A DNA stretch of 58,398 nt, taken from Thermodesulfobacteriota bacterium. Lineage in GTDB: Bacteria; Desulfobacterota; Desulfobaccia; Desulfobaccales; 0-14-0-80-60-11. The stretch is taken from positions 1 through 58,398 of the forward strand of contig JBFLZI010000002.1 in NCBI GenBank assembly GCA_040756315.1. Direction: 5' to 3'. Every line of letters starts with the position of its first letter. The stretch's first letter is position 1. The notes beneath the pieces were generated by a model. It had not been told where the DNA came from and did not search any database. It was given only the letters and a program-made list of their open reading frames with translations. A program made the position numbers and the translations under genes. Shown piece after piece: positions 38,090 to 51,166 of the stretch.

Positions 38090-38683
38090 ATGGGAGCGAA
38101 AGTCGGCAAACCGGCCCCGGACTTTGAGGCCGCGGCCTTTATCAATGGTGGTTTCAAAAACATCAAGCTCTCCGATTATAAAGGAAAATGGGTAGTGCTG
38201 TGCTTTTATCCGGGTGATTTCACCTTTGTCTGACCCACGGAACTGGCGGCAGTTGCCGCCAGATATAAAGAGTTTCAGGACTTGGGGGTAGAATTCCTGT
38301 CCATCAGCACCGACAGCCGCTTCAGTCATAAGATTTGGCAGGAAGAAGAGCTAAGCAAAATGGTGCCCGGCGGGATTCCCTTCCCCATGTTATCTGACCC
38401 CATGGGACTCATCGGGCAGGTGTACGGCGTCTTTGATGAGGAAGGCGGGGTGGATATCCGGGGCCGGTTTATCATTGATCCGGATGGCGTCATTCAAGCC
38501 GCGGAAACCTTGAGTCCACCGGTGGGCCGCAATCCTGCCGAGTTGCTCCGGCAGATCAAGGCTTATCAGCATGTCCGGGCCACCGGGGAAGTCTGCCCTT
38601 CAGGTTGGCAGCCGGGAAAATCTACTTTGAAGCCCGGTCCCGCCCTGGTAGGGAAAGTCTATCAGTGCTGGCAGCCGGAATAG
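38090..38683 (+). CDS. 2-Cys peroxiredoxin (AhpC/Prx family) with selenocysteine (TGA 38231-38233) at the peroxidatic position
   Basis: Two same-frame track ORFs join through one TGA. The joined sequence [16 protein letters not shown] matches the Prx motif FYPxDFTFVCPTE. Resolving-Cys region EVCPSGW. RBS GGGAGG 9 nt before the ATG. A hairpin lies downstream of the TGA. Confidence 0.85.
38243..38262 (+). promoter_or_regulatory. candidate bacterial SECIS hairpin (Prx)
   Basis: CTGGCGGC-AGTT-GCCGCCAG. Perfect 8-bp stem with GU in the loop. Starts 10 nt after the TGA. Confidence 0.65.
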
Positions 38684-42795: not shown

Positions 42796-44055
42796 ATGGA
42801 TACGGGTGAACGTCTGGCATTAGCGTCTGTAGCAGTCAACCTTTTGGTGACCGGGCTCAAGTATTTCCTGGGGGTGTTTTCCGGGAGTCTGGCCCTCTTG
42901 GCCGACGCGGTGCACTCCAGCGCCGACGTGGTCTCGTCCGCCTCCATCTGGGCCGGGATCAGGCTCTCCCGGCGCAAGACCAAACGGTTTCCCTATGGCC
43001 TCTACAAGGTGGAAAACCTGGTGGCTTTAATCACCGCGGCGATTATTCTCCTGGCCGGCTATGAGATCGCCCGCAGCGTGTTGTGGGCCGGGGAGAGGGT
43101 CCGGGCGGAACGCCTGCCGTACGCCATTTTCGGAGTGATGGTGATTGTTTTGATTCTCCTGGCCTTTTCCCGCTACGAGCTGAGAAAGGCCAGAGCCCTC
43201 AGTTCCCCCAGCCTGGAGGCCGACGCCCAGCACCTGGGCGCCGACCTGTTTTCTTCTTGCGTCATCCTGGTGGGACTGGCAGGAACCTATTTTCAGGTGA
43301 AATTCCCCCTGGACCGGGTGGCGGCCCTGATCATCGTGGGATTGATCGCCTGGGTGGGGGTGAAAATCGCAGTGGACGCCATCCGGGTGCTCCTGGACGC
43401 CTCCCTGGACTTCCATACCTTGAACACTATCCGGGACATTATCCTTGAGACCCCCCAGGTCAGTAAGATCAACGCGCTGACGGGAAGGAATTCCGGCAAA
43501 TTCAAGTTCATCGAAGCCGACCTGGCCCTTAAGGTCAGGGAGCTCCCCAAGGCTCACTTTATTGCCAATCAAATCGAGGGCCGCATCAAAGCCAGAGTGT
43601 CCAATGTGGATCACGTTCTCATCCATTATGAACCCATTAAAAAAGAGACTCGGGTCATTGCCTTGCCCGTGGCGGCAGATCGGCAGCACCTGTCGGAGCA
43701 CTTCGGGGAAGCGCCTTATTTCCTTTTGCTCACCTTAAAGATTGAAGACGGCAGTCTTTTAGAAGAAACCTGGCAGTCCAACCCCTTTCTAGGGGTGGAA
43801 AAAGGTAAAGGCATCCAGGTGAGCGAATGGCTGGTGAGCCTGGGGATTGACGAAGTGGTCACCGCCAAAAGTTTCGCGCATAAGGGTCCCTTTTACGTCT
43901 TTTCCGACAATGAAGTGGAGGTGCGGCAAACCGAGGGGCAGAGCCTCAAGGAGATCAAGGAATCTCTCATCGGGTCTGCCGAGGCCGGTAGCGCTGGCCA
44001 GGACTTCAGCTTTGGTGGAAATAATCCCCCCATTTACTCAGAAGATAGCCATTGA
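42796..44055 (+). CDS. cation diffusion facilitator (CDF) efflux transporter fused to a C-terminal NifX-like domain
   Basis: CDF membrane and cytoplasmic domains (LLADAVHSSADVVSS, six TM segments). The last ~110 aa or so read RVIALPVAADRQHLSEHFGEAPYFLLL...GIDEVVTAKSF, which matches the Nitro_FeMo-Co pattern. Confidence 0.85.
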   Translation: MDTGERLALASVAVNLLVTGLKYFLGVFSGSLALLADAVHSSADVVSSASIWAGIRLSRRKTKRFPYGLYKVENLVALITAAIILLAGYEIARSVLWAGERVRAERLPYAIFGVMVIVLILLAFSRYELRKARALSSPSLEADAQHLGADLFSSCVILVGLAGTYFQVKFPLDRVAALIIVGLIAWVGVKIAVDAIRVLLDASLDFHTLNTIRDIILETPQVSKINALTGRNSGKFKFIEADLALKVRELPKAHFIANQIEGRIKARVSNVDHVLIHYEPIKKETRVIALPVAADRQHLSEHFGEAPYFLLLTLKIEDGSLLEETWQSNPFLGVEKGKGIQVSEWLVSLGIDEVVTAKSFAHKGPFYVFSDNEVEVRQTEGQSLKEIKESLIGSAEAGSAGQDFSFGGNNPPIYSEDSH

Positions 44056-47050: not shown

Positions 47051-47172
47051 ACCAATTCGCACTCAAATAGGTATTAAAATGTAGGGGCGAACCTTGGGTT
47101 CGCCCACTGATTTAGGGCGAATCCAAGATTCGCCCCTACGAAAAAAATTGTCGTTTGATGGCGAATTGGTAT
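47051..47172. repeat. MITE-like element: terminal inverted repeats ACCAATTCGC/GCGAATTGGT around a double-hairpin GTAGGGGCG...CGCCCCTAC core
   Basis: The core at 47081-47139 contains GGGCGAAC-CTTG-GGTTCGCCC and GGGCGAATC-CAA-GATTCGCCC. Related cores lie at 47214-47270 and 51054-51117. The GGCGAATTGGTATTAG end recurs at 51675-51690. Confidence 0.55.
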
Positions 47173-47213
47173 TAGACAGGCCCGGCGGGCGCCGGGCTGC
47201 CTTAAGCAGTTTG

Positions 47214-47270
47214 GTCGGGGCGCACCCGCGTGTGCTCCTTTGAAATCGGGCGGACACCTAAGTCCGCCCC
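47214..47270. repeat. degenerate copy of the GTAGGGGCG double-hairpin repeat
   Basis: GTCGGGGCGCAC..GTGTGCTCC..GGGCGGAC-ACCTAA-GTCCGCCCCTGG. Confidence 0.45.
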
Positions 47271-47382
47271 TGGAGGAGACTCTATTAGTGTTTGACGGAA
47301 ACATCCGGGACATAACCGTAAGGGAAAATGTAACTTCACTGACAGGGCAGATCTAGAAAAGGGGGTGACAAAGGTGAGCAAC

Positions 47383-47730
47383 ATGCTCTTTATCATTTCC
47401 AACGGCTTTGAAAAGGCGGGCCGGGCCACCCGGGCCTTCCAATTCGCCAAGGTAGCCAGGGAAAAGGGACATGACGTTAAGGTCTTTCTGGTGGACGACG
47501 CCATCCATTGGGCCCAACTGGGCATGGCCGAAGGGGTCCGGGCCGCCACCGGCGAGGAGATGAAGCCTTTTATCGACTACCTGCTGGCCAACGGCACGGA
47601 GATTGTCGCCTGCAAGGCCTGAGTGGACCACAGGTACTTAACCCCCGATGAAATGATTCCGGGGGTCACTATTCAAGGGGCGCCATATCTCATCGATTTG
47701 ATAGAACGCTATCAGACGATGACCTTTTAA
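47383..47730 (+). CDS. DsrE/YchN-family protein with selenocysteine (TGA 47620-47622) in a CxxU motif
   Basis: The track ORF stops at ...EIVACKA. Reading through the TGA adds VDHRYLTPDEMIPGVTIQGAPYLIDLIERYQTMTF, restoring the C-terminal third typical of DsrE/YchN. The family motif CxxC becomes CKAU. Start is ATG 47383 or GTG 47365/47374. Confidence 0.75.
47641..47666 (+). promoter_or_regulatory. candidate SECIS hairpin (DsrE-like gene)
   Basis: ACCCCCG-12 nt-CGGGGGT. Perfect 7-bp stem starting 19 nt after the TGA. Confidence 0.5.
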
Positions 47731-47960
47731 AGGGCCTGGTTCTAAAAAGCGCTTCCCTCTGTCGCCCGGTGGGGTGGAGGAAGGAGATTCCTTTTTTAGC
47801 CAAAAGGCCCGGTATTACTGCGCCTGGAACTTTCAGGGGATTCAGGTCAGGCAACCTCGGAGATCCCGCCCGGGTTGCGGCTGACGGAAAAGGGAGAGGT
47901 TTGTTTTTTCCCTCCCCCTGGCAGGGTTTCCGGCAAGACCTTTAAGACGGTTAAGGTAAG

Positions 47961-49279: not shown

Positions 49280-50635
49280 ATGGAAAAAGGACATAAACTG
49301 GTGATCATCGGCATGGGAGGAGTGGGCGGCCCGGCGGCTATGCTCGCTCGCAAGTTACTGCCGGGCGTGGACATTACCGTTATCCGGGAAGAAGACCGCT
49401 TCATCGTCCGCTGAGCCCTCCCCCACGTGGTGGCCGGTGTGGCTACCGTTGACTCCATCACCAATCCGGACCGGATGTTTGAGGAAGCCGGCATCAAGGT
49501 GGTGCTGGGAAAAGTCGTGAAGGCTGACGCGGTCAATAAAACCCTGATGTTGGCGGATGGCGGCACCATCCATTTTGACAAGCTCATCTTGGGCCTGGGG
49601 GCCCGACAGATGATCTCACCTTTGGAGGGGAGTACCCTCAAGGGCGTTTTTACCTTGAGGAGCGCCGCTGACGCCGTGCGCATCCGGGAATATCTCGAGG
49701 CTGAAAATCCTCGTCAACTGATCTTTATCGGCGCGGGTTACACCAATCTGGAAACCGCCTCCTTGCTGATGACCGCCAAACCGGATTACTACCGGGCCAC
49801 CGTCGTTGAACTTATGGAGTATCCTTTGCCCTTGATGCTGGACCGGGACCTGGCCCTGGGGGTTCAGGATTATTTAGCCGAAAAAGGCCTCCAGATGAAA
49901 ATGGGAGAAAAAGCCGCCCGGCTCCTGGGAAACAACGGCCGGGTAGCCGGGGTTGAACTTACCTCGGGGGAACAAATCCCCGGAGATTTTGTTTTGATCG
50001 CGGTGGGGGCCGCCCCTAACCTGGAACTGGCCCAGCAGTTAGATCTGGCCCTAGAAAAATTCGGCATTCAGGTAAATGAGTTTTTGGAGACCTCCCATCC
50101 CGATATTCTGGCCGGAGGCGATTGTGTGGAGAAGCTCCATTTTATCACGAAAAAACCGGTGCTCAGCATGCTGCGCGGCCCCGCCGTCATTCAGGGGCGG
50201 CTCCTGGCCAAACGCCTGGCCGGTTATGCGATTCCTTTCCCGGGAGTCTTGAACAATTCCGCGGTCAGGTTGTTCGACAAATATTTGGGTTCCGTGGGTC
50301 TGACCGAAGACGCGGCCCGCCGGGAAGGGTTCGACCCCATCACGGCTTCGGCGGTCTCCCGCAGTAAACACGGCATGATCCCCGGGGTCAAGCCCTGGAC
50401 CCTAAAACTGGTGTTCGACCGCCAAACCCAAAAGCTCCTGGGGGGGCAGATCATCAGTGACAGCGAGGCGCCGGTGAAGGAGATCGATACGATCAACGCC
50501 CTGATCCTGGGGGGCAAAACCATCCCCGACCTGACCCTCTTGATGTGCGCCGGCACGCCGGACTTGTCGTCCGAACCGAGTCTGGAGCCCATCACGATCT
50601 GCGCCGAGCAGGCGCTGCAAAAAATGCGCGGATAA
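49280..50635 (+). CDS. CoA-disulfide reductase/NADH oxidase-family flavoprotein with selenocysteine (TGA 49412-49414) at the redox-active Cys position
   Basis: ATG 49280 with AAAGGAGA. MEKGHKLVIIGMGGVGGPAAM...RFIVR-U-ALPHVVAG aligns with the SFANCALPY region of CoADR/Nox. Same frame as the track ORF at 49427-50635. The joined protein is 451 aa. Confidence 0.82.
49427..49449 (+). promoter_or_regulatory. candidate SECIS hairpin (CoADR/Nox-like gene)
   Basis: GGTGGCC-GGTGT-GGCTACC (7 bp including one G-U pair, extendable by two wobble pairs). Starts 13-15 nt after the TGA. Confidence 0.5.
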
Positions 50636-51019: not shown

Positions 51020-51053
51020 TACCAAGGTGCGCTCATAACGGTAATATATTTTC

Positions 51054-51117
51054 TGTAGGGGCGGACCTAGGTGTCCGCCTCAGATTTTGGGCGCACACAC
51101 AGGTGCGCCCCTACAGA
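51054..51117. repeat. GTAGGGGCG double-hairpin repeat (best copy)
   Basis: CTGTAGGGGCGGAC-CTAGGT-GTCCGCC...GGGCGCAC-ACACAG-GTGCGCCCCTACAG. Confidence 0.55.
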
Positions 51118-51166
51118 CAAGCAGATTGACTTACTTCTTTGAGCGTAACTTGGCATACACCCTTCA

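What the first reader, a model, noticed from the sequence alone, without database searches (positions are those of the whole stretch)
47383..47730. DsrE/YchN-family selenoprotein with a CxxU motif, truncated in the ORF track
The track ORF ends ...GTEIVACKA at TGA 47620-47622. The same frame continues for 35 more codons (VDHRYLTPDEMIPGVTIQGAPYLIDLIERYQTMTF) to TAA 47728-47730. From memory, E. coli YchN reads ...VKLCKTCTDGRGI...GVEIG.L.EL....ADKVLTF. The extension therefore restores the conserved C-terminal third, including the terminal TF, and the family CxxC becomes C-K-A-U. A 7-bp GC hairpin (47641-47666) follows the TGA. The joined protein is about 115 aa, the normal size for the family.
Basis: partly seen in the sequence, partly recalled or inferred. 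Interest (0 to 1): 0.7.

Follow-up and report, generated by a model that had tools for sequence, protein, structure and literature searches.

The report
Unannotated DsrE/YchN-like selenoprotein (C-x-x-U)
A small sulfur-carrier-type (DsrE/YchN-like) gene is cut short in databases at a TGA that almost certainly encodes selenocysteine; the family is already known to contain selenoproteins, but here the selenium sits at the other cysteine of the active-site pair.

Summary
The ORF ends at TGA 47620-47622. The same frame runs 35 more codons to TAA 47728-47730, and a GC hairpin lies at 47641-47666.

The interpretation also holds. Read-through restores the whole Pfam DsrE domain (46 to 70.5 bits). The same in-frame TGA occurs in 28 genome loci and in 5 further contigs that share three distinct sequences. 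Thirty related loci have Cys at that column (C-K-A-C). The tail after the TGA is under purifying selection (pN/pS 0.23). Synonymous change drops about four-fold exactly over the hairpin, and only in the TGA clade. Two other genes in the window (a peroxiredoxin and a CoA-disulfide-reductase-like gene) also carry TGA at their catalytic Cys.

It is a real selenoprotein gene that every source consulted lists as a truncated protein of about 82 aa.

DsrE-like selenoproteins have been known since 2005, but they are listed as UxxC. This clade is CxxU, so Sec replaces the second Cys. I call it a new variant of a known kind.

In about 17 of 34 loci (with the window; 30 distinct sequences) it sits beside a TusA gene and a sigma-54 activator, and sometimes beside a CoA-disulfide/persulfide-reductase-type gene. 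This points to sulfane-sulfur relay. That function is inferred, not shown.

Interest is moderate.

The parts
47360..47365 (+). Probable ribosome-binding site (AGGGGG), 8 nt upstream of GTG 47374
   Evidence: Read from the sequence. Inference only.
47374..47619 (+). N-terminal two-thirds of the DsrE/YchN-like coding sequence. The probable start is GTG 47374, with ATG 47383 as the alternative; the mechanical ORF start is GTG 47365.
   Evidence: ORF list and translation. Pfam DsrE matches model positions 4-78. Homologues begin M-[SAG]-[KN]-[MFL]-LFIIS.
47611..47613 (+). TGC, the first Cys of the C-K-A-U motif, at the column of the first Cys of the family CxxC
   Evidence: Invariant in 29/29 Sec-clade and 30/30 Cys-clade sequences. 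Invariant column C81 in alignment A4. In the model it lies at the end of strand 78-81.
47620..47622 (+). In-frame TGA, the predicted selenocysteine codon (U of C-K-A-U)
   Evidence: TGA in 29/29 clade members and in L067-L071. TGC/TGT Cys at the same column in 30 homologues.
47623..47640 (+). 18-nt spacer between the UGA and the hairpin (codons V-D-H-R-Y-L)
   Evidence: Amino acids are almost invariant (pN 0.017) while synonymous sites vary (pS 0.53).
47641..47666 (+). Candidate SECIS hairpin. It has a 6-7 bp G/C stem, a 5' two-nucleotide bulge (AU), a 3-bp upper helix (GAA/UUC) and a tetraloop AUGA at 47653-47656, 33 nt after the U of UGA.
   Evidence: Folding. Conserved in 29 sequences, with every change structure-preserving (C>U or A>G giving G.U). 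Four-fold codons in the arms are invariant (CCC 25/25, CCG 29/29, GGG 29/29), against 1.2-1.8 bits at most four-fold codons outside the hairpin. The same codons vary freely in the Cys clade. pS is 0.18 against about 0.70 in the flanks. The same stem occurs in independent contigs L067-L070 with variable loops.
47623..47727 (+). C-terminal third of the protein, translated only if the UGA is decoded
   Evidence: It restores Pfam model positions 79-116. pN/pS is 0.23 for codons +16..+27. In the model of the 73%-identical Cys homologue this part holds helix 82-87, strand 99-102, helix 104-113 and strand 116-119.
47728..47730 (+). True stop codon TAA
   Evidence: Homologues also stop right after ...[TS]F.

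Best explanation
Bases 47374(47383)-47730 are one gene for a cytoplasmic DsrE/YchN-fold protein of about 115-118 aa. Its active-site pair is Cys-Lys-Ala-Sec.

**Decoding (inferred from the standard bacterial mechanism).** UGA 47620-47622 is decoded as selenocysteine. SelB carrying Sec-tRNA(Sec) would bind the conserved hairpin at 47641-47666, which lies inside the coding sequence, and deliver Sec to the ribosome at the UGA. Without decoding, the product lacks two of the five core strands and two helices, and should not fold.

**Function (inferred from family, fold and gene neighbourhood).** The protein is a sulfane-sulfur (persulfide) relay or reductase.
- The invariant first Cys lies at the first-Cys column of the family CxxC. 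By recalled knowledge, this is the position of the persulfide-carrying Cys78 of TusD/DsrE.
- This Cys, or the Sec itself, takes sulfur from a TusA-type or rhodanese-type donor.
- The Sec three residues later, in the first turn of the following helix, acts as the highly nucleophilic partner and forms a selenenylsulfide. This releases or passes on the sulfur.
- The Se-S bond is then re-reduced by a partner, for example a CoA-disulfide/persulfide-reductase-type flavoprotein or an Hdr-like complex.

**Shown:** the gene structure, Cys/Sec homology, selection on the tail, an RNA-level constraint on the hairpin, the fold of the family, and the neighbourhood.
**Inferred:** SelB binding, actual Se incorporation, and every chemical step.
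For: **Gene structure**
- Pfam DsrE scores 70.5 bits over the full model for the read-through, against 46.1 bits over two-thirds for the truncated ORF.
- The same TGA occurs in L001-L028, all with a conserved downstream frame. L029-L061 (30 analysable) have C-K-A-C.
- All Sec-clade entries among the 120 best protein-database hits stop at ...CKA (69% coverage), including NCBI 'DsrE family protein' records.

**Selection**
- pS/pN is 0.715/0.090 for the upstream codons.
- It is 0.696/0.161 for tail codons +16..+27.
- It is 0.181/0.048 for the hairpin codons.
- Zero third-position entropy at four-fold codons in the hairpin arms occurs only in the TGA clade.
- The hairpin is kept in 29 sequences, and all changes preserve pairing. 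It is kept again in L067-L070.

**Sec decoding in this genome**
- TGA is otherwise a normal stop here, ending 22 of 57 mapped ORFs.
- A peroxiredoxin (DFTFV-TGA-PTE) and a CoADR-like gene (FIVR-TGA-ALPHVV) in the same window carry TGA at their catalytic Cys. Each is followed by a hairpin.
- The relatives are Syntrophobacter-type Deltaproteobacteria, a selenoprotein-rich group (PMC1794560).

**Fold**
- The AF2 model of the 73%-identical Cys homologue has pLDDT 93.7.
- It matches 3mc3 at TM 0.87 and YchN 1jx7 at TM 0.86/0.88.

**Function clues**
- A TusA gene and a divergent sigma-54/PAS activator lie next to the gene in about 17 loci.
- A CoADR-rhodanese fusion is convergent to it in L070/L071.
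- A CoADR-Sec gene is adjacent in the window, L003 and L005.
- Hdr-like genes and a second DsrE paralogue occur in 5-6 loci.
- A rhodanese and a CoA-binding protein lie upstream in the window.
Against: - No selA/selB/selD or tRNA-Sec lies in the 58-kb window (ORF map).
- No Rfam family matches the hairpin.
- There is no double compensatory change in the stem, so there is no covariation in the strict sense.
- The single-sequence folding energy is unremarkable.
- The apical loop (AUGA, AUGG, AUGC or AUAC) does not clearly show the G in its first two positions that I recall from the published bacterial SECIS consensus.
- The immediate neighbours in the window (rhodanese, histidine kinase) are not conserved in other loci, and the window copy has no TusA beside it.
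- There is no protein-level evidence. The chemistry is entirely inferred.
Confidence: 0.85

Rival explanations
1. The TGA is a genuine stop. The gene is a truncated or split pseudogene, or two separate small ORFs (the second starting at GTG 47623).
For: the ORF listing reports both pieces as separate ORFs, and GTG 47623 could serve as a start. All sources consulted annotate the 79-85 aa product. An open frame after a TGA is common in this window.
Against: The arrangement is conserved in at least 31 independent assemblies spanning 73-91% protein identity. There is purifying selection on the tail (pN/pS 0.23) and no frameshift or second stop. The tail supplies core strands of the fold. Cys occupies the TGA column in homologues. 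No ribosome-binding site or spacer exists for a separate second ORF.
Confidence: 0.04
2. It is a sequencing or assembly error at 47620-47622, and the real codon is TGC or TGT.
For: A single-base change would give Cys, as in homologues.
Against: TGA is found at this column in 28 genome loci and 5 further contigs from unrelated projects. The TGA clade also has its own conserved hairpin, which the Cys clade lacks.
Confidence: 0.01
3. The UGA is read through or recoded as something other than Sec. Examples are Trp, Cys or Gly by near-cognate suppression or an altered genetic code, with the hairpin acting as a generic read-through stimulator.
For: Nothing here shows selenium directly. The loop does not clearly fit my recollection of the SECIS consensus, and no Sec machinery is in the window.
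Against: TGA terminates many ordinary genes in the window. The recoded column is a redox Cys in all homologues, which is the signature of Sec. Two further genes in the window have TGA at the catalytic Cys of families with published Sec forms, namely Prx TxxU and CoADR. The lineage is selenoprotein-rich.
Confidence: 0.05
4. It is a selenoprotein, but it is not a sulfur-relay protein. [quoted passage not shown]
For: - The C-x-x-U motif at a strand-helix junction resembles redox CxxC motifs.
- JGI names many members 'predicted peroxiredoxin'.
- YedF, with a TusA-like plus a DsrE-like domain and a CGxC motif, has been linked to selenium use (PMC5322559).
- The window copy has no TusA and lies near oxidative-stress-type genes, Prx-Sec and CoADR-Sec.
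Against: TusA is adjacent in about 17 loci, and there are CoADR-rhodanese, DsrE paralogues and Hdr-like genes. These are typical of sulfane-sulfur handling. No selD or yedE neighbour was seen in the loci examined. These alternatives overlap chemically with the main proposal and are not strictly exclusive of it.
Confidence: 0.3

Closest known systems
DsrE-like selenoprotein family (Zhang, Gladyshev and co-workers 2005-2008). Examples are Desulfovibrio vulgaris ...GVLAA-U-GKC-MGIHGV... and Sargasso Sea ...VPIYI-U-GGC-AEARGV... It is listed as 'DsrE-like protein, PF02635, UxxC, WP_014524487.1' in the 2022 and 2026 reviews.
   Same: - Same Pfam domain (PF02635).
- Same small single-domain architecture ending in ...TF or ...NF.
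- Sec in the same four-residue active-site motif.
- Also found in sulfate-reducing Deltaproteobacteria.
- Function likewise unknown and predicted only.
   Different: - Published members are U-x-x-C; this clade is C-x-x-U.
- hhalign places the Sargasso U on the first Cys column and its C on the column that is TGA here (94.8% probability). MAFFT agrees.
- For D. vulgaris the profile alignment of the C-terminal part failed, so equivalence there rests on the motif and on MAFFT.
- Sequence similarity to the published members is low (17-23% identity).
- The two review tables and the four survey papers I read list only UxxC for this family.
E. coli YchN (PDB 1jx7) and the Sulfolobus DsrE/DsrF-like protein 3mc3
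   Same: - Closest solved structures. phmmer gives E = 5.5e-4 to 1jx7.
- Foldseek gives TM 0.86/0.88 with rmsd 1.8 A to 1jx7, and TM 0.87 to 3mc3, for the model of the 73%-identical Cys homologue.
- Same length. A C-K-T-C motif at the same place in YchN (sequence recalled from memory and used). Same terminal ...LTF.
   Different: Both are Cys proteins, about 22% identical, of unknown function. No Sec and no SECIS.
TusD / DsrE subunits of the TusBCD and DsrEFH sulfur-relay complexes (PDB 2d1p, 2hy5)
   Same: - Same fold (TM 0.75-0.84).
- A conserved Cys at the first position of the motif, which by established knowledge carries a persulfide.
- They work with TusA, which is also the most frequent neighbour here.
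   Different: - NCBIfam TIGR03012 (TusD) scores 16.3 bits against a cut-off of 89.25, so this is not a TusD/DsrE orthologue.
- No TusB/C or DsrF/H partners were seen nearby.
- TusD has no second Cys or Sec three residues on (recalled).
Cys-containing paralogue clade (C-K-A-C-A-D-K-R...) of Desulfobacterota, e.g. Desulfacinum, Desulfocarbo and Desulfarculus. In Desulforhabdus amnigena it is P0141, alongside the Sec form P0068.
   Same: 49-61% identical, the same length, the same motif position, and often present in the same genomes.
   Different: Cys instead of Sec, no conserved hairpin, and free synonymous variation over the equivalent codons.

Membership tests
DsrE/DsrF-like family (Pfam PF02635) | Full-length match to the family HMM above the gathering score | tested here: met
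   70.5 bits against a cut-off of 22.7, covering residues 2-115 on model positions 4-116 of 116 with the U replaced by C. The truncated ORF gives 46.1 bits on model positions 4-78.
DsrE/DsrF-like family (Pfam PF02635) | DsrE/YchN alpha/beta fold | tested here: met
   Tested on the closest full-length Cys homologue, P0001 (73% identical), not on the window protein itself. pLDDT is 93.7. Foldseek top hits are 3mc3, 1jx7, 3pnx, 2hy5 and 2d1p, with TM 0.75-0.88.
DsrE/DsrF-like family (Pfam PF02635) | Conserved active-site Cys at the end of the fourth strand (the Cys78 position of TusD/DsrE) | tested here: met
   TGC 47611-47613 is invariant in all 59 aligned homologues. It lies at the end of strand 78-81 in the model. 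Equivalence to TusD Cys78 is from recalled sequence, not tested.
TusD/DsrE equivalog (NCBIfam TIGR03012) | Score above the curated cut-off | tested here: not met
   16.3 bits against a cut-off of 89.25, and only residues 4-44 match.
Bacterial selenoprotein gene | In-frame UGA aligned with Cys in homologues | tested here: met
   TGA in 29/29 clade members, and TGC/TGT in 30/30 members of the sister and paralogue clades at the same column.
Bacterial selenoprotein gene | Conserved, selected coding frame downstream of the UGA | tested here: met
   pN/pS is 0.23 for codons +16..+27 and 0.19 for +1..+27. The frame ends in ...[TS]F followed by a stop in nearly all members (L014 ends ...TLSC).
Bacterial selenoprotein gene | Stem-loop (SECIS) a short distance 3' of the UGA | tested here: met
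   The hairpin is at 47641-47666, with its apical loop 33 nt after the UGA. It is conserved in 29 plus 4 sequences. Synonymous sites are frozen in its arms only in the TGA clade, and pS is 0.18 against 0.70.
Bacterial selenoprotein gene | Published bacterial SECIS consensus details (a G among the first loop positions), or a match to a curated RNA model | tested here: inconclusive
   The loop is AUGA, AUGG, AUGC or AUAC, with a 5' AU/AC bulge. The G is not at loop positions 1-2 if the 3-bp upper helix forms. There is no Rfam match. The consensus is recalled from memory. There are no compensatory double changes.
Bacterial selenoprotein gene | Sec machinery (selA, selB, selC/tRNA-Sec, selD) in the same genome | not testable with these tools
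   Only tRNA-Ala is in the window, and the rest of the genome is not available. Indirect support comes from two more TGA-at-catalytic-Cys genes in the window and from a selenoprotein-rich lineage.
Bacterial selenoprotein gene | Selenium in the protein | not testable with these tools
   Needs 75Se labelling or mass spectrometry.
Published 'DsrE-like selenoprotein' (UxxC form) | Sec at the first position of the four-residue motif (U-x-x-C) | tested here: not met
   The motif here is C-K-A-U. The Sargasso member aligns U to the first Cys and C to the column of this TGA (MAFFT). The sequences come from the supplements of PMC1088965 and PMC1794560.

The most novel reading that the evidence does not exclude
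This may be an uncatalogued second form of DsrE-like selenoprotein, with these features:
- It arose by an independent Cys-to-Sec change at the second (helix) position of the CxxC.
- It is widespread in Syntrophobacterales, Desulfobaccales and Desulfobacterales.
- It is systematically truncated in GenBank/RefSeq, JGI and ENA gene calls.
- It is regulated by a sigma-54/PAS activator.
- It may work with TusA and a CoA-persulfide-reductase-type flavoprotein as a selenium-dependent persulfide relay or reductase.

The clade also seems to contain a Sec-to-Cys reversion with a decaying SECIS (L029/L030).
Probability: 0.45. Interest if true: 0.5.

Novelty: new variant of a known kind. Interest (0 to 1): 0.4.

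Why it matters
**Annotation.** More than 100 protein clusters in public databases, including NCBI 'DsrE family protein' records from cultured species such as Desulforhabdus amnigena, are truncated by one third. They hide a selenoprotein. A family model with U at this column would fix them.

**Biology.** The same CxxC motif has acquired Sec at either Cys in different branches of one small fold. The TGA clade also coexists with a Cys paralogue in the same genomes. This makes a clean natural comparison of what Sec does at the attacking position versus the resolving position.

**Function.** The conserved TusA / sigma-54 activator / CoADR-type neighbourhood gives an experimentally approachable hypothesis for a YchN-type protein. 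The function of this group has been unknown since the YchN structure was released in 2002.

None of this overturns current understanding.

Tried and rejected
- **Rfam**, at gathering threshold on the whole window and at E up to 10 on 47560-47760, gave no SECIS-type match and only chance hits.
- **Single-sequence folding** of 47611-47690 was not better than shuffles (z = -0.07). This is uninformative for a short coding hairpin.
- **Covariation test.** No pair changed on both sides, and shuffles equalled the observed values. Support therefore comes from suppression of synonymous change, not from covariation.
- **Synteny with the window's own neighbours** (rhodanese, CoA-binding protein, histidine kinase, CGGC protein) is not conserved. 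The exception is CoADR-Sec (plus the CGGC gene in L003) in L003 and L005. The conserved neighbours, TusA and the sigma-54 activator, are absent from the window copy.
- **hhalign of the family profile against the D. vulgaris DsrE-like selenoprotein** aligned only 28 N-terminal columns. Positional equivalence for that protein remains unproven.
- **PDB phmmer.** The top hits were spurious matches of 'GFEKAGRATRAFQFAKVAREKG' to designed pentatricopeptide repeats, and I disregarded them.
- **A second protein search**, seeded with a Desulfovibrionales Cys homologue to look for U-x-x-C forms within this subfamily, found only full-length Cys proteins.
- **Antisense ORFs** over the gene (47353-47631 and 47202-47549, minus strand) recur in other loci only because the sense strand is conserved (cluster 0). 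I rejected them as genes.
Full report
**Observation**

The stated sequence facts are all correct.
- The ORF (mechanical start GTG 47365) ends ...GTEIVACKA at TGA 47620-47622.
- The same frame continues for 35 codons (VDHRYLTPDEMIPGVTIQGAPYLIDLIERYQTMTF) to TAA 47728-47730.
- A hairpin lies at 47641-47666, with arms ACCCCCG and CGGGGGU.
- Homologues begin M-[SAG]-[KN]-x-LFIIS, so the likely start is GTG 47374 (MSNMLFIIS), preceded by AGGGGG at 47360-47365. ATG 47383 is the alternative.

By itself the open frame means little. At least a quarter of the TGA-terminated ORFs in this 59% GC window have 35 or more open codons behind them. The hairpin's folding energy is also no better than that of shuffled sequence. 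The case rests on homology and comparison.

**The read-through restores a complete domain**

With Cys in place of the stop, Pfam DsrE (PF02635) matches residues 2-115 to model positions 4-116 of 116 at 70.5 bits. The truncated ORF gives 46.1 bits on model positions 4-78 only.

An AlphaFold model of the closest full-length Cys homologue (P0001, 73% identical) is confident, with pLDDT 93.7. Its best structural matches are as follows:
- the Sulfolobus DsrE/DsrF-like protein 3mc3 (TM 0.87);
- E. coli YchN 1jx7 (TM 0.86/0.88, rmsd 1.8 A);
- DsrEFH and TusBCD subunits after these.

YchN is also the best true sequence hit in the PDB (E = 5.5e-4).

In the model the first Cys ends strand 78-81 and the second Cys sits in the first turn of helix 82-87. 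The part after the stop contributes strand 99-102, helix 104-113 and strand 116-119. A protein ending at the TGA would therefore lack core elements of the fold.

**Comparative evidence for selenocysteine**

A scan of one genome per species found 66 related loci. I translated them through stops.
- **TGA clade.** L001-L028 are Desulfobaccales, Syntrophobacteraceae and Desulfobacterales MAGs, plus Desulfoferrobacter suflitae. All have TGA at the same column (...[AV]CKA-TGA-V[DN]HRYL[ST]PDEM...), followed by a conserved frame ending ...[TS]F-stop.
- **Cys clade.** Thirty analysable loci among L029-L061 have C-K-A-C there. They include Desulfacinum, Desulfocarbo and Desulfarculus.
- **Further contigs.** Five contigs fetched through the truncated proteins (L067-L071) carry three distinct sequences. 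One comes from a Chitinispirillaceae bin and one matches the Desulforhabdus amnigena protein. They show the same TGA and tail.
- **Database state.** Every clade member among the 120 best protein-database hits stops at ...CKA, at 79-85 aa and 69% coverage. NCBI names them 'DsrE family protein' and JGI 'predicted peroxiredoxin'. No source holds a read-through version.

A base-call error is therefore excluded.

**Selection**

I computed Nei-Gojobori proportions over the 29 clade sequences.

| Region | pS | pN |
|---|---|---|
| 75 codons before the TGA | 0.715 | 0.090 |
| Tail codons +16..+27 | 0.696 | 0.161 |
| Codons +7..+15 (over the hairpin) | 0.181 | 0.048 |

The tail evolves as a translated protein.

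Per codon, the four-fold degenerate codons in the hairpin arms are invariant: Pro CCC 25/25, Pro CCG 29/29 and Gly GGG 29/29. Four-fold codons just outside the hairpin mostly carry 1.2-1.8 bits of third-position entropy. In the Cys clade the equivalent Pro and Gly codons carry 1.35 and 1.88 bits. This is an RNA-level constraint specific to the TGA clade.

**The hairpin**

The consensus structure is a 6-bp G/C stem, with a seventh A-U pair in some sequences. Above it are a 5' bulge (AU or AC), a 3-bp upper helix (GAA/UUC) and a tetraloop. Every observed change keeps pairing (C>U or A>G giving G.U). No pair changed on both sides, so there is no strict covariation. In the more divergent contigs the stem is identical and only the loop varies: AUGA, AUGG, AUGC or AUAC.

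The loop lies 33 nt after the UGA. As I recall the published bacterial SECIS model, this is within its range. The loop does not clearly show the early G of that consensus, and Rfam has no matching model. I treat the element as a SECIS on the strength of position and constraint, not of motif identity.

**Does this organism decode Sec?**

The window holds no sel gene and only a tRNA-Ala. TGA is an ordinary stop in the window, ending 22 of 57 mapped ORFs.

Two more genes in the window have TGA at the catalytic Cys of families with published Sec forms:
- a peroxiredoxin at 38090-38683, with DFTFV-TGA-PTE at 38231-38233 (AhpC-TSA, 138.8 bits for the read-through);
- a CoA-disulfide-reductase/NADH-oxidase-like flavoprotein at 49280-50635, with FIVR-TGA-ALPHVV at 49412-49414 (TIGR03385, 225 bits for the read-through, below that model's 578.8-bit cut-off).

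The flavoprotein TGA is conserved in L003 and L005. Each TGA is followed by a GC hairpin with G/U-containing loops. The relatives belong to a lineage noted for very large selenoproteomes (PMC1794560).

**What is known**

'DsrE-like protein' has been on the list of predicted prokaryotic selenoprotein families since the Sargasso Sea survey and the 2006 comparative study. The 2022 and 2026 reviews list it as PF02635, UxxC, with representative WP_014524487.1.

The supplements give the sequences:
- D. vulgaris: ...GVLAA-U-GKC-MGIHGV...
- Sargasso: ...VPIYI-U-GGC-AEARGV...

A profile alignment places the Sargasso U on the first Cys column and its Cys on the column that is TGA in this window (94.8% probability). 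MAFFT agrees. For D. vulgaris the profile alignment covered only the N-terminus.

So the published members carry Sec at position 1 of the motif and this clade at position 4. Identity to the published members is only 17-23%. NCBIfam has no model that recognises the read-through protein beyond a sub-threshold TusD hit of 16.3 bits against a cut-off of 89.25. I therefore class it as a new variant of a known kind. I could not search every large-scale selenoproteome data set, so prior cataloguing under the umbrella name cannot be excluded.

**Evolution**

In a neighbour-joining tree the TGA sequences form one clade, separated by a long branch from the C-K-A-C-A-D-K-R paralogue clade. Both forms occur in the same genomes:
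- D. amnigena has P0068 and P0141;
- MAG JTS-AC195 has L003 and L049.

Two Cys sequences (L029 and L030, motif CKAC-VDRRYLSPDEML) nest beside L028 within the TGA clade and keep a weakened hairpin (CCCG...CGGG). This suggests a Sec-to-Cys reversion. The tree is crude, so this is only a suggestion.

**Context and likely function**

In the window the gene stands alone between two long intergenic regions (425 nt upstream, 230 nt downstream) that carry palindromic repeats.
- Upstream lie a signal-peptide rhodanese and a CoA-binding protein.
- Downstream lie a PAS histidine kinase, the CoADR-Sec gene and a CGGC-domain gene.

These neighbours are mostly not conserved. Across the other loci the recurrent partners are as follows:
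- a TusA-family gene, usually immediately upstream, and a divergently transcribed sigma-54/PAS activator, in about 17 loci;
- a second DsrE paralogue (C-V-P-C), with HdrA-, HdrB(CCG)- and HdrC-like genes, in 5-6 loci;
- CoADR-type flavoproteins: the Sec form in the window, L003 and L005, and a CoADR-rhodanese fusion convergent to the gene in L070/L071.

TusA, rhodanese, DsrE-family proteins and CoADR-rhodanese enzymes are, by established knowledge, components of persulfide and sulfane-sulfur trafficking and CoA-persulfide reduction.

My best functional reading is a persulfide relay or reductase in which Cys76 and Sec79 (numbered from ATG 47383) form a reducible selenenylsulfide. A general redox role or a selenium-handling role cannot be excluded. 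All of this is inference.

**Verdict**

- The gene is a genuine but universally mis-truncated selenoprotein gene of the DsrE/YchN fold.
- It differs from the published DsrE-like selenoproteins in which Cys has become Sec.
- Interest is moderate. It is useful for annotation and as a natural Cys/Sec positional comparison, but it is not a surprise in kind.

Noticed in passing
window 49280-50635 (+), TGA 49412-49414, hairpin about 49429-49447: A CoA-disulfide-reductase/NADH-oxidase-like flavoprotein is split in the ORF list at an in-frame TGA at the catalytic Cys position (FIVR-U-ALPHVV). The TGA and a GGUGGCC-GGUGU-GGCUACC hairpin are conserved in L003 and L005. It belongs to a published Sec family ('FAD-dependent oxidoreductase/CoADR').
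   Followed up: partly
window 38090-38683 (+), TGA 38231-38233, hairpin about 38243-38262: A peroxiredoxin (AhpC/TSA) has an in-frame TGA at the peroxidatic Cys (DFTFV-U-PTE, the known TxxU Sec form). The ORF list shows only its C-terminal 133 aa.
   Followed up: partly
window 47081-47139, 47214-47271 and 51049-51120: REP-like paired palindromes (GTAGGGGCGnnCC...GGnnCGCCCCTAC) occur only in the intergenic regions on either side of the roughly 4-kb block holding DsrE-Sec, the histidine kinase, CoADR-Sec and the CGGC gene. Arms 47214-47271 and 51057-51114 are 78% complementary. It is unclear whether they mark a mobile or rearranged module.
   Followed up: partly
L029:5464-5811 and L030:4454-4801: Two Cys-form genes (CKAC-VDRRYLSPDEML) nest inside the TGA clade in a neighbour-joining tree. 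They retain a weakened version of the hairpin (CCCG...CGGG). This may be a Sec-to-Cys reversion with a decaying SECIS.
   Followed up: partly
proteins P0064 (NCBI, Desulfobacteraceae bacterium 4484_190.3) and P0090 (JGI): Two database proteins of this clade lack 26-31 residues that span the C-K-A-U motif, and therefore the TGA and the 5' half of the hairpin, but continue in frame (...EEMKPFI|MIPGVEMEG...). They could be real in-frame deletions or assembly artefacts. The DNA was not examined.
   Followed up: no
L067:1-3564 (GCA_016929595.1, Chitinispirillaceae MAG): A TGA-form gene sits on a 3.7-kb contig next to IS21/DDE transposase genes in a bin assigned outside the Desulfobacterota. This could be horizontal transfer or a binning error.
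   Followed up: no
L070/L071:6069-10314; also L003-L011, L015, L020, L023 and L024: There is a conserved cassette: a sigma-54/PAS activator, divergent from TusA followed by DsrE(Sec). In L070/L071 a CoADR-rhodanese fusion is convergent to it. Nitro_FeMo-Co-domain proteins and a CDF transporter with a Nitro_FeMo-Co domain lie nearby. The window also has such a CDF gene at 42796-44055.
   Followed up: partly
window 47353-47631 (-) and 47202-47549 (-): Long antisense ORFs overlap the gene, and similar ones recur in 18 related loci. This is most simply a by-product of sense-strand conservation in GC-rich DNA, not evidence of genes.
   Followed up: partly
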